Assembly (NCBI GenBank): GCA_964419615.1
Contig: CAYQPU010000007.1
Coordinates: 1-51,563, forward strand
Direction: 5' to 3'
DNA from: an uncultured Methanosarcinales archaeon
GTDB lineage: Archaea; Nanobdellota; Nanobdellia; Woesearchaeales; JAGVZT01
DNA: 51,563 bases
Positions 13,061-14,075 of this stretch are shown one piece after another. The notes below the pieces were generated by a model. It was not told the origin of the DNA, searched no databases, and was given only the letters and a program-made list of their open reading frames with translations. The position numbers were made by a program, and so were the translations under genes. The stretch's first letter is position 1. Each line of letters opens with the position of its first letter.

Positions 13061-13074
13061 TGCGGGGGAGGGGA

Positions 13075-13220
13075 CTTTCATAATCTTTTACTAGTTTTAA
13101 CCAAAGGCAGCACTCTTATGTGCTTGAGTCGTGGCCATCATGTTTTCATGAACGCCACATTATGGGACTTTATGTCCCATTACTTTTGGTCAAGCTTTTG
13201 CGCAAAGCGGAAAAGACTGA
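13075..13220 (-). other. tRNA intron 3 (position 59/60, 146 nt, multi-branched structure)
   Basis: BHB: central helix UUCA/UGAA, bulges AA|U and AG|U, flanked by the T-stem and the intron helix AGUCUUUU/AAAAGAUU. Confidence 0.9.
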
Positions 13221-13252
13221 TTTGAACCCCCGGACCCACTAAGGGACAGGAT

Positions 13253-13277
13253 ATCTCAGGTACAATTGAGTGTCCAT
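13253..13277 (-). other. tRNA intron 2 (canonical 37/38, 25 nt)
   Basis: Central helix CUUA/UGAG, bulges AG|A and AU|A; the intron-side helix is weak (relaxed BHB). Confidence 0.9.
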
Positions 13278-13309
13278 CTTAAGTCCTGCGCGTTTGACCA
13301 GACTTCGCT

Positions 13310-13341
13310 TTAAGGATATGTGGAACAAATGCCCACACTCT
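13310..13341 (-). other. tRNA intron 1 (position 8/9, 32 nt)
   Basis: Central helix GGGG/CCUU, bulges GU|A and AA|A, intron helix GUGUGG/CCACAU. The AG redundancy also allows 9/10 or 10/11, but only 8/9 satisfies BHB geometry. Confidence 0.8.
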
Positions 13342-13942
13342 ACCCCCGCGTGTCTGGTATTTTTGATATGGGTTTAATCAAGTTTAAAAAATTTTCCTTT
13401 TGTTTATTTGTAACTCTGAGTACATAATGGGGTTTTCTATTTTCCTTTAGTATAGGTCCTCTCATAGTGTGTTTAAATCCCAAATCACCAAGTAATGCAG
13501 AAATATCATAAATTCCTTTTTTATTCGATGAGAAGAATCTGATGCCATTTACAGCTGAACCGTCTCCGTCAAAAAAACCTCTGATAAAAGCAGTTTTGCA
13601 TTTTAAATCTCCAGTTTTTACTGCTTCTGGAACTTTCCAAGTAAAACTCCCCAAATTTGTGTAACTAATTATGTCTCTAATTATTACCATTTTACAAATA
13701 TTTATTTTATTATATTTTGTGATTTTGGGATAATAACCATATTGTTGATTTAGTAAATTTTGATAATGCACAAGTAACTTGATATCCTTGTTATATAACT
13801 CAATTCTTTCAGATTTATCATTCTTATAAAATCTCTTTTTTCCTCTATCTTTACCCCAATAACTTGAAAAAGATACAATGTGTGAGCCTTCTGCACATAA
13901 TAATCCCAAAATTTCTGACAGTTCTGGAGTTATTTTATTCAT
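13340..13942 (-). mobile_element. Free-standing two-motif LAGLIDADG homing endonuclease gene overlapping the tRNA-Leu 5' end
   Basis: Motif 1 LSEILGLLCAEGS and motif 2 TAFIRGFFDGDGS, both with the acidic catalytic residue. SD GAGGTGA at 13956-13950. No intein Hint residues. Last codons ACG CGG GGG TAG contain tRNA nt 1-8. Confidence 0.88.
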
Positions 13943-13945
13943 AAA

Positions 13946-13976
13946 CAAATCACCTCACAAAATTAGGGAGGATTTG
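13946..13976 (-). promoter_or_regulatory. Hairpin covering the endonuclease Shine-Dalgarno sequence
   Basis: CAAAUC-CUC ... GAG-GU-GAUUUG pairs across the GAGGUGA SD, 4 nt before the ATG. Confidence 0.5.
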
Positions 13977-14075
13977 GTTTATAAGAGTCACGCGGGAATG
14001 TCCAGTGACATTTTAATAAATCGCAACATATATAAATACTAAATATCGTGAAATTATTAAAAAGAGGTATGATGT

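What the first reader, a model, noticed from the sequence alone, without database searches (positions are those of the whole stretch)
13310..13349. Intron at tRNA position 8/9 leaves an 8-nt first exon and needs the acceptor stem to be unfolded
Seen: BHB geometry fits only the 8/9 register, with G3-G6 pairing to intron CCUU. Those same Gs form the mature acceptor stem, so splicing and acceptor-stem formation are mutually exclusive and imply an ordered pathway. Position 8/9 is not among the non-canonical sites I recall as common (D-loop, 29/30-32/33, variable arm, T-loop), but I cannot confirm novelty without a search.
Basis: partly seen in the sequence, partly recalled or inferred. Interest (0 to 1): 0.7.

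Follow-up and report, generated by a model that had tools for sequence, protein, structure and literature searches.

The report
Leader-assisted intron after tRNA-Leu nucleotide 8
The only tRNA-Leu(UAA) gene of this small DPANN (Woesearchaeota-type) archaeon carries a real protein-spliced intron right after nucleotide 8; the same intron occurs in at least 54 other species, its splice structure borrows the 5' leader, and it is tightly linked to a homing-endonuclease gene that may explain how it spreads.

Summary
Observation confirmed. On the minus strand, 13349-13061 encodes a three-intron tRNA-Leu(UAA). Removing 13341-13310, 13277-13253 and 13220-13075 gives a clean cloverleaf. The same-genus ortholog is uninterrupted at 8/9.

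The 8/9 register holds. In 55 aligned genes (window plus 54 species, all labelled Woesearchaeota/Nanoarchaeota or mislabelled), nt 3-6 pair with the intron in 55/55. Overall 91% of cells pair, against 33-55% when the partner is slid.

New here:
- A 5' leader box (CCAGAC) pairs with nt 15-20 and covaries with it. It occurs in 49/55 intron-bearing genes and 0/16 intronless ones.
- It probably holds the 8-nt exon in place for ligation.

The "acceptor stem must stay unfolded" logic is sound but not special. A 3/4 intron is already published, and the order of events remains an inference.

An I-DmoI-like LAGLIDADG gene abuts this intron:
- 21 of 22 close homologs sit directly upstream of such an intron.
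- 15 of 55 intron loci keep the gene or a decayed remnant.
- This suggests homing-driven spread, which is untested, and there is one counter-example.

Reviews I could read do not list 8/9. This scan has already noted similar endonuclease-intron pairs, and an 8/9 intron in tRNA-Cys, on other DNA.

The parts
13383..13391 (-). TATA-like box (UUUUUUAAA), 34-42 nt upstream of G1. Likely the tRNA promoter, embedded in the conserved ...FL(N/K)... codons of the endonuclease gene.
   Evidence: A TTTAAA-type box starts at -44 to -39 in most of 54 homologous loci. That position predicts a transcript start about 10-14 nt before G1. This is inference from the usual archaeal promoter spacing.
13352..13358 (-). 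5' leader box ACCAGAC. It pairs with GUCUGGU (13303-13297, tRNA nt 15-20a) to form the outer helix of the splice motif.
   Evidence: The pairing is in the MFE fold. A 6-nt complement lies 1-13 nt upstream of G1 in 49/55 intron-bearing genes and covaries (GCCUGG with CCAGGC 18 times; GUCUGG with CCAGAC/U 11 times). It is absent from 0/16 intronless Leu genes.
13342..13349 (-). Exon 1: tRNA nt 1-8 (GCGGGGGU).
   Evidence: Complementary to 13068-13062 (CCCCCGC). Identical to nt 1-8 of the same-genus ortholog. ARAGORN cloverleaf obtained after splicing.
13310..13341 (-). Intron 1, 32 nt, between nt 8 and 9. CCUU (13315-13312) pairs with G3-G6. An internal hairpin GUGUGG/CCACAU forms the inner helix.
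   Evidence: Family-wide pair counts.
13278..13309 (-). Exon 2: nt 9-37 (D-arm, anticodon stem 5' strand, anticodon UAA).
   Evidence: 76-93% identical to Leu(UAA) genes of relatives.
13253..13277 (-). Intron 2, 25 nt, at the canonical 37/38 position. CUUA (nt 32-35) pairs with UGAG.
   Evidence: Read directly from the sequence. Removal is needed for the cloverleaf.
13221..13252 (-). Exon 3: nt 38-59 (anticodon stem 3' strand, long variable arm, T-stem 5' strand, T-loop to A59).
13075..13220 (-). Intron 3, 146 nt, at 59/60. UUCA (nt 54-57) pairs with UGAA just before the AG|U 3' bulge. It belongs to a repeat family in this genome.
   Evidence: About 13 further copies of its sequence occur in the own genome. 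Nearly all tRNA genes of the genome have a T-loop insert ending GAAAGU.
13061..13074 (-). Exon 4: nt 60-73 (U60, T-stem 3' strand CCCCU, acceptor 3' strand CCCCCGC, discriminator A).
13340..13948 (-). LAGLIDADG (I-DmoI-like) endonuclease gene, about 200 aa. Its last codons are the leader box and tRNA nt 1-7. Its stop codon UAG is U8 plus the first two intron bases.
   Evidence: Pfam LAGLIDADG_3, E 1.8e-14. Best solved relative is I-DmoI, E 5.8e-8. Both catalytic motifs are invariant in 7 homologs. Adjacency to the 8/9 intron is conserved.

Best explanation
Window 13341-13310 (minus strand) is a bulge-helix-bulge intron between nucleotides 8 and 9 of the genome's single tRNA-Leu(UAA) gene. It would be removed by the archaeal splicing endonuclease EndA and the ligase RtcB.

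How the splice-competent fold forms: the nascent transcript folds locally into a long hairpin.
- The 5' leader box CCAGAC pairs with nt 15-20.
- C-1/G1/C2 pair with G12/C11/G10.
- G3-G6 pair with the intron's CCUU, forming the 4-bp central helix.
- An intron-internal hairpin forms the inner helix.
- This leaves G7-U8|A and A-A|A9 as the two 3-nt bulges that are cut.

Consequences:
- The leader helix keeps the tiny 5' fragment (leader plus 8 nt) annealed to exon 2 until ligation.
- G1-G6 are used in this fold, so the acceptor stem can form only afterwards.
- The leader is needed, so splicing should precede RNase P.

Shown: the insertion, the register, the conserved and covarying helices, a mature cloverleaf, and the presence of EndA, RtcB and RNase P RNA.

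Inferred: actual cleavage and ligation, the exon-holding role of the leader, and the order of events.

The intron is one member of a family found in tRNA-Leu genes of many Woesearchaeota-type genomes. Its spread is probably tied to the adjacent LAGLIDADG gene (see the section on the most novel reading).
For: Insertion and function:
- The insertion is absent from the same-genus ortholog, and the spliced product is a normal tRNA-Leu(UAA).
- The gene is single-copy and decodes the commonest Leu codon.

Structure across the family:
- 54 other species carry a 15-38-nt insert (mode 31) at the same site.
- On the 55-sequence alignment, the central helix and the inner part of the outer helix are paired in 55/55. 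The inner helix has double changes at 5/5 pairs.
- The covariation score is 0.422 against 0.235 in shuffles (0/500 reach it). Slid registers give 33-55% paired against 91.3%.
- The leader box is present in 49/55 intron-bearing genes, covaries, and is absent from 16/16 intronless Leu genes.

Energetics:
- The strict BHB lies a median 1.1 kcal/mol above the MFE across the family.
- Nascent chains of 70-290 nt all fold with the central and outer helices. The full-length MFE switches to the acceptor stem.

Enzymes in the genome:
- One alpha-type EndA, 219 aa, with both Pfam domains.
- RtcB at 538 bits.
- RNase P RNA at 101.5 bits.
Against: - There are no RNA data, so splice junctions are predicted only.
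- In the window's own sequence the local MFE fold pairs G7, U8 and the first intron base, so no 5' bulge forms. The strict BHB costs 3.9 kcal/mol more.
- The only EndA found is a single alpha-type gene. Older literature says the alpha4 type needs strict motifs at the canonical site (PMC3239211). Kaneta 2018 (PMC5829648) reports alpha4-type enzymes in DPANN lineages with heavily disrupted tRNA genes.
- The sequences are related, so shuffle statistics overstate independence.
Confidence: 0.85

Rival explanations
1. The intron sits at 9/10 (or another neighbouring register) rather than 8/9. In the window both registers give the same mature sequence, because the intron starts with A and exon 2 starts with A.
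For: Sequence ambiguity in the window. The run G3-G7 can slip against CCUU, and many local MFE folds use a slipped pairing.
Against: - A 9/10 register would need G4-G7 to pair with CUUA, which does not pair.
- Sliding the 3' partners by +/-1 on 55 sequences drops pairing from 91% to 45-52%.
- In roughly 20 family members the intron starts with U or C, so a 9/10 register would give U9 or C9. The 8/9 register always gives A9, as in most intronless orthologs.
Confidence: 0.04
2. The gene is a decaying pseudogene, or the insert is not removed. The resemblance to a splice motif is incidental.
For: Standard finders miss the gene. There are no expression data.
Against: - It is the only tRNA-Leu(UAA) candidate in a 99%-complete genome with 34% UUA among Leu codons.
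- All stems of the spliced product are intact.
- The motif is conserved, with compensatory changes, in 54 other species.
- Most tRNA genes of this genome are interrupted in the same way.
Confidence: 0.02
3. The endonuclease gene and the 8/9 intron are neighbours only by common descent of one locus. The endonuclease plays no part in the intron's origin, spread or retention. It may use the tRNA gene merely as a safe, well-expressed landing place.
For: - One intact homolog sits next to a wholly intronless tRNA-Leu (L091).
- More distant homologs sit upstream of other tRNA genes, with D-loop introns or none.
- Most intron-bearing loci (about 40 of 55) have no endonuclease gene.
- In these lineages nearly every tRNA gene has introns anyway.
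Against: - 21 of 22 assessable close homologs abut an 8/9 intron, against about 6% of genomes in the order that carry the pattern.
- In a matched sample the subfamily was found only in genomes with the intron, and always beside it.
- Decayed remnants of its C-terminus persist at four intron loci that have lost the rest of the gene, as in a homing cycle.
- The distribution is patchy across many families.
Confidence: 0.4

Closest known systems
Non-canonical BHB introns of archaeal tRNA genes, especially the 3/4 acceptor-stem intron of Thermoproteales (Sugahara 2008, as cited in Yoshihisa 2014, PMC4090602)
   Same: A short ORF-less intron bounded by a 3-4-3 bulge-helix-bulge. It lies outside the anticodon loop in a multi-intron gene. 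The motif competes with the mature fold and must draw on flanking sequence. tRNAscan-SE 2.0 extends candidates by 60 nt for this reason (PMC8450103).
   Different: - Position 8/9 is not in the lists I could read (20/21, 22/23, 25/26, 29/30, 30/31, 45/46, 53/54, 56/57, 59/60, 3/4).
- The host is a DPANN lineage with a single alpha-type EndA rather than the (alpha-beta)2 type.
- A conserved, covarying leader box forms the outer helix.
- It is linked to a LAGLIDADG gene.
Split and permuted tRNA genes (Nanoarchaeum equitans, Caldivirga, Thermofilum; PMC4090602, PMC3218864)
   Same: Sequence outside the mature tRNA (leader or trailer) pairs with tRNA sequence to build the BHB and to hold the pieces together for ligation.
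   Different: Here everything is on one transcript in normal order, and the leader pairs with the D-loop region in cis.
Collaborative homing: free-standing endonuclease F-CphI beside the ORF-less psbA group I intron of cyanophage S-PM2 (PMC6083498; the original 2009 paper is recalled from memory)
   Same: An endonuclease gene lies next to, not inside, a small ORF-less intron in a conserved gene. Distribution among relatives is patchy.
   Different: - The intron here is protein-spliced (BHB), not self-splicing.
- The endonuclease is a LAGLIDADG enzyme whose reading frame overlaps exon 1 and runs into the intron.
- Cleavage of the intronless allele has not been shown.
- One locus has the endonuclease without the intron.
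I-DmoI, the LAGLIDADG endonuclease encoded inside the BHB intron of Desulfurococcus mobilis 23S rRNA
   Same: Closest solved structure by sequence (E 5.8e-8 over nearly the full length). It is a single-chain two-motif enzyme of about 200 aa, archaeal, and associated with a BHB intron.
   Different: I-DmoI lies within its intron. This gene lies upstream of the tRNA gene, and the intron itself has no ORF.
[quoted passage not shown]
   Same: Most tRNA genes carry several introns, and standard finders miss many. The Asgard preprint states that the route of intron arrival is open.
   Different: The Asgard work found no general link to mobile elements. Here one intron family is tightly linked to one endonuclease subfamily.

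Membership tests
Archaeal BHB (EndA-spliced) tRNA intron | Two 3-nt bulges on opposite strands, separated by a 4-bp helix, with splice sites after the second bulge base. | tested here: met
   G7-U8|A and A-A|A9 flank G3-G6:CCUU. The helix is paired in 55/55 family members. The strict fold lies 3.9 kcal/mol above the MFE in the window, median 1.1 across the family.
Archaeal BHB (EndA-spliced) tRNA intron | Flanking outer and inner helices (hBHBh'). | tested here: met
   Outer helix: -1/1/2 with 12/11/10, paired in 100% of cells, plus the leader box with nt 15-20. Inner helix: 79% of cells paired, with double changes at 5/5 pairs.
Archaeal BHB (EndA-spliced) tRNA intron | Removal restores a canonical tRNA, and orthologs without the insert exist. 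| tested here: met
   ARAGORN cloverleaf for Leu(UAA). Uninterrupted 8/9 junction in G001 and 15 other Leu genes.
Archaeal BHB (EndA-spliced) tRNA intron | The genome encodes the splicing endonuclease and the RtcB ligase. | tested here: met
   EndA with PF01974 and PF02778. RtcB at 538 bits.
Archaeal BHB (EndA-spliced) tRNA intron | Intron excised and exons ligated in vivo or in vitro. | not testable with these tools
   No RNA data were available.
Homing-endonuclease-associated (collaborative-homing type) intron | An intact endonuclease gene with catalytic residues lies next to an ORF-less intron, and the adjacency is conserved. | tested here: met
   Both LAGLIDADG motifs, with invariant E20 and D129. 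Adjacency in 21/22 close homologs and in every genome of a matched sample that has the gene.
Homing-endonuclease-associated (collaborative-homing type) intron | The endonuclease cleaves the intronless allele at or near the insertion site, and the intron-bearing allele is immune. | not testable with these tools
   This needs a cleavage assay. L091 (intact gene beside an intronless tRNA-Leu) argues against a simple immunity model.
Homing-endonuclease-associated (collaborative-homing type) intron | Patchy distribution, with intact, decayed and lost endonuclease copies (homing cycle). | tested here: met
   The pattern occurs in 25/401 genomes of the order, spread over many families (two of the 25 are unpublished genomes). 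Intact, stop-containing and C-terminal-remnant copies were seen. Vertical descent with loss is not excluded.
Self-splicing group I / group II intron | A ribozyme core of hundreds of nucleotides. | tested here: not met
   The insert is 32 nt. There are no Rfam matches in the window.

The most novel reading that the evidence does not exclude
The 8/9 intron is the partner of a free-standing I-DmoI-like LAGLIDADG homing endonuclease that targets the conserved 5' end of tRNA-Leu genes. In this reading the endonuclease gene, the tRNA promoter embedded in its last codons, the leader box, exon 1 and the intron move together by double-strand-break repair into intronless alleles. The endonuclease gene then decays and leaves the intron behind. 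That would be a DNA-level route by which protein-spliced tRNA introns are gained at odd positions in archaea.
Probability: 0.45. Interest if true: 0.8.

Novelty: new variant of a known kind. Interest (0 to 1): 0.6.

Why it matters
Three points.

1. It shows why a 99%-complete DPANN genome seems to lack most tRNAs. About 10 pass standard finders, while about 40 are recoverable by hand. It also supplies a concrete, conserved splice architecture for an end-proximal intron. Annotation tools could model this: extend the candidate into the leader and look for the leader/D-loop helix.

2. The leader-dependent motif predicts a processing order, with splicing before RNase P and before acceptor-stem formation. 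It also predicts an exon-holding role for the leader. Both can be tested with simple transcripts.

3. How archaeal tRNA introns arrive at new positions is an open question. [quoted passage not shown] A tight two-way link between one intron family and one homing-endonuclease subfamily, with decayed intermediates, makes that question testable with one protein and two DNA substrates.

Tried and rejected
- **ARAGORN and Rfam.** Neither found a tRNA in the window, at gathering threshold or by E-value. ARAGORN with the intron option and RF00005 on the whole genome recover only about 10 tRNAs.
- **Exact-pattern scan of genome contigs for the window's own exon1-intron-exon2.** Nothing was found, and the own genome may be masked.
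- **The search for related loci with the single endonuclease protein.** No relatives were found. The 7-sequence alignment was needed.
- **Orphaned tRNA fragment upstream of the endonuclease gene.** By eye the region looked like the D-arm/anticodon region. Other notes of this scan report stranded 5' ends at other tRNAs. Local alignment of that region against the downstream tRNA gene, with 200 shuffles, at 19 of 21 loci scored (two lacked a recognisable exon 1) gave z from -1.1 to 2.8. This is not supported here.
- **Other 8/9 introns in the own genome.** None were found among about 42 tRNA frames. Three genes have inserts near 12/13 instead.
- **Literature.** The search tools cannot match '8/9'. 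'Positions 8 and 9' returned only modification papers. Sugahara 2008 is not held. Prior description of 8/9 therefore cannot be excluded.
- **Long-range pairing of CCCGCGUG (13996-13989) with the tRNA 5' end.** That motif lies upstream of the likely endonuclease promoter box (cttataaac, conserved position in homologs). It may not be transcribed, so I did not pursue it.
- **Typing of the EndA L3 loop.** Not done.

Full report
**What is there**

On the minus strand the window reads GCGGGGGU (13349-13342), then 32 nt (13341-13310), then AGCGAAGUCUGGUCAAACGCGCAGGACUUAAG. Further on come a canonical anticodon-loop insert, a long variable arm, GGGGGUUCAAA, a 146-nt insert, and UCCCCUCCCCCGCA.

ARAGORN and Rfam report no tRNA anywhere in the window. 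Joining 13349-13342, 13309-13278, 13252-13221 and 13074-13061 gives 86 nt. ARAGORN calls this tRNA-Leu(UAA), with a 7-bp acceptor stem, a 3-bp D stem, 5-bp anticodon and T stems and a class II variable arm.

The other two introns follow the same geometric rule as the first:
- Canonical 37/38 intron: nt 32-35 CUUA pair with UGAG, and the bulges are A-G|A and A-U|A.
- 59/60 intron: UUCA pairs with UGAA, and the bulges are A-A|U and A-G|U.

**The organism and its tRNA set**

The genome is 1.48 Mb, 33% G+C and 99% complete. Contigs carrying homologous loci are labelled Candidatus Woesearchaeota, Nanoarchaeota or Nanoarchaeia. Some machine-binned ones are evidently mislabelled Methanosarcinales.

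Only about 10 tRNAs pass ARAGORN or the Rfam cut-off. A search for T-arm plus acceptor complementarity recovers about 42 tRNA frames. Nearly all carry a T-loop insert ending GAAAGU, and many carry D-loop inserts. Kaneta et al. 2018 (PMC5829648) already noted that incomplete tRNA sets in DPANN point to undetected disrupted genes.

The genome encodes:
- one alpha-type EndA, 219 aa, with the N-terminal and catalytic Pfam domains;
- RtcB;
- RNase P RNA.

**Is the 8/9 insert real and functional?**

- The same-genus genome G001 has gcgggggtagcgaagtctgg uninterrupted and carries a D-loop intron instead. None of the loci fetched from the relatives and printed has an insert at 8/9.
- The window's gene is the only credible tRNA-Leu(UAA) in the genome.
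- UUA is 34% and UUG 17% of Leu codons in 409 long ORFs.

The gene must therefore yield a working tRNA.

**Register and structure**

In a BHB each bulge lies 3' of its strand of the 4-bp helix, and the cut falls after the second bulge base. The window's canonical intron obeys this rule. For a cut after U8:
- the helix must use nt 3-6, and GGGG pairs with CCUU (13315-13312);
- the 3' bulge is AA|A9;
- nt 2 and 1 and leader base -1 pair with G10, C11 and G12.

The local MFE fold adds a 7-bp helix between the leader ACCAGAC (13358-13352) and GUCUGGU (nt 15-20a).

In the window the MFE pairs G7, U8 and the first intron base instead of bulging them. The strict BHB is 3.9 kcal/mol higher.

**The family**

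I scanned one genome per prokaryotic species for GCGRGGGU, then 11-41 nt, then AGCRAAGYCUGGUCAAA. This found 54 further species, with inserts of 15-38 nt (mode 31), in both UAA and CAG isoacceptors.

On the 55-sequence alignment (A1) the named structure holds well:

| Measure | Result |
|---|---|
| Cells paired, named register | 91.3% |
| Cells paired, partners slid by 1-3 columns | 33-55% |
| Central helix | paired in 55/55 (nt 4: A-U 27, G-U 22, G-C 6) |
| Three inner pairs of the outer helix | paired in 55/55 |
| Inner helix | 79% paired, double changes at all five pairs |
| Covariation score | 0.422 vs 0.235 in shuffles (0/500 reach it) |

The sequences are related, so the shuffle figure is not a probability. 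The slide control keeps relatedness and is the stronger evidence.

The first intron base varies (A, U, C) while the base after the intron is almost always A. Only the 8/9 register therefore gives the A9 seen in most intronless orthologs.

Leader box:
- 49 of 55 genes have a 6-nt Watson-Crick/G-U complement of nt 15-20, lying 1-13 nt (mostly 4-5) upstream of G1.
- GCCUGG goes with CCAGGC (18 genes), and GUCUGG with CCAGAC or CCAGAU (11 genes).
- None of 16 Leu genes without the intron has such a box. This includes the same-genus ortholog and L091.

A TATA-like box sits about 39-44 nt upstream of G1 in most loci. That position would start the transcript just before the leader box. This is an inference from standard archaeal promoter spacing.

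**Mechanism and order of events**

Shown:
- The splice-competent fold uses G1-G6, which are also the 5' strand of the acceptor stem.
- Nascent chains of 70-290 nt all fold with the central and outer helices.
- The complete transcript's MFE (-103.9 kcal/mol) instead forms the acceptor stem.
- With the other two BHBs imposed, the BHB1 state (-98.6) and the acceptor-stem state (-97.8) are equal within error.

Inferred:
- The 5' hairpin forms co-transcriptionally and is cut.
- The leader helix (10 bp in all) keeps the roughly 20-nt 5' fragment on exon 2 for RtcB.
- Only then can the acceptor stem form and RNase P act.
- If RNase P removed the leader first, only 2-3 bp would hold the 8-nt exon.

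It is, however, the expected behaviour of any end-proximal BHB intron. A 3/4 intron in Thermoproteales is cited as the extreme case in Yoshihisa 2014 (PMC4090602), and tRNAscan-SE 2.0 extends candidates by 60 nt to find such motifs (PMC8450103).

**Link to a homing-endonuclease gene**

The ORF 13948-13340 is a two-motif LAGLIDADG protein (Pfam LAGLIDADG_3). Its closest solved relative is I-DmoI. Its last codons encode the leader box and tRNA nt 1-7.

From the intron side:
- Homologs at 45-59% identity lie in the same place at 11 of the 54 other intron loci.
- Stop codons fall at tRNA positions +8 to +27 in eight of these, and 78-79 nt upstream in two.
- Four loci keep only a decayed C-terminal stretch, FLxxIxPISK. 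Two of them, L022 and L050, are not among the 11, so 15 of the 55 intron loci in all keep the gene or a remnant.

From the endonuclease side:
- 21 of 22 close homologs with downstream sequence are followed at once by a tRNA-Leu with an 8/9 insert. Some have variant exon 1 sequences that my pattern missed.
- One (L091) is intact beside a wholly intronless tRNA-Leu that also lacks the leader box.

Background and matched sample:
- The pattern occurs in 25 of 401 genomes sampled across the order.
- The hits are spread over many families, and the reversed-pattern control gave none.
- I compared 23 pattern-positive and 24 pattern-negative genomes. Of seven matches at E 1e-20 or better, six lay in pattern-positive genomes beside the intron.
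- The seventh, in a 'negative' genome (G379), turned out to abut an 8/9 intron with exon 1 GAGAGGGU.

More distant homologs (25-43% identity; Woesearchaeota and Aenigmatarchaeota) also sit just upstream of tRNA genes.

I read this as a homing-cycle picture. The endonuclease drives co-conversion of itself, the promoter, the leader box, exon 1 and the intron into intronless alleles, and then decays. The closest analogy is collaborative homing in cyanophage S-PM2 (PMC6083498).

This is a hypothesis:
- No cleavage data exist.
- L091 contradicts a simple immunity role for the intron.
- Vertical descent with loss is not excluded.
- I found no detectable stranded copy of the tRNA upstream of the gene.

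**Novelty**

The kind of element, a BHB tRNA intron, is well known. What I could not find described:
- position 8/9;
- a conserved, covarying leader/D-loop helix as part of the motif;
- a LAGLIDADG gene abutting a tRNA BHB intron.

The reviews I could read list other positions (PMC4090602).

Within this scan, earlier unchecked notes report related cases:
- an 8/9 intron in a tRNA-Cys of another Woesearchaeota genome;
- LAGLIDADG genes beside introns of tRNA-Phe, -Trp, -Gly and -Arg and of two protein genes.

The theme is therefore recurrent in these lineages. This locus adds a large comparative data set for one family.

Noticed in passing
window 13075-13220 (minus strand), and own-genome contigs C35, C16, C21, C3, C43, C10, C5, C13, C32, C26, C20: The 146-nt T-loop (59/60) intron is a repeat family. 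About 13 other places in the genome match it at 67-88% identity. Nearly every tRNA frame in the genome has a T-loop insert ending GAAAGU just before nt 60/61. This suggests one intron family has spread through almost the whole tRNA set.
   Followed up: partly
own genome: C10 minus-strand frame 44121, C49 minus-strand frame 2848, C12 plus-strand frame 40 (script coordinates): Three tRNA genes starting GCCGAGG, GCCGCGA and GCCAAGG have inserts of about 27-30 nt after GGCA. That places them near position 12/13, inside the D-stem 5' strand.
   Followed up: no
L106 about 1800-1900 (Aenigmatarchaeota MAG contig JAZDLW010000026.1): A distant homolog of the endonuclease (36% identity) is followed by a tRNA gene reading GCCGAGGU, a 22-nt insert, then CGCAUAACCAGG. 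The insert passes the strict 8/9 BHB test. A near-copy of the tRNA's first 9 nt (GCCGAGGUA) lies about 25 nt upstream. This may be the same phenomenon in another tRNA and another DPANN lineage.
   Followed up: partly
L091 1201-1950 (Woesearchaeota MAG contig JANNSE010000035.1): An intact endonuclease homolog lies directly upstream of a completely intron-free tRNA-Leu(UAA). The leader box is absent there (CCUACU instead of CCAGGC). It is a natural control for the leader box and a counter-example to a simple 'intron shields the target' model.
   Followed up: partly
window 13975-14010 (minus strand): CACUGGACAUU...CGCGUGAC lies upstream of a TTATAAAC box, about 35-45 nt before the endonuclease start codon. 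Similar CACTGGACA and TTATAAAC elements precede homologs in L079 and L095. This is probably the endonuclease gene's own promoter region.
   Followed up: partly
L075 1474-2133 (own genome C3, minus strand): The single EndA has a roughly 45-residue Lys-rich N-terminal tail before the standard N-terminal and catalytic domains. I did not check whether it carries the DPANN 'L3' insert linked to broad specificity (PMC5829648).
   Followed up: no
own genome C19, minus-strand frames 15981 and 16038 (script coordinates): A 14-nt duplicate of a tRNA gene's 5' end (GCCTCTGTAGCATA) lies 57 nt upstream of the real gene. This resembles the stranded 5' ends reported for endonuclease-invaded tRNA genes elsewhere in this scan.
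   Followed up: no
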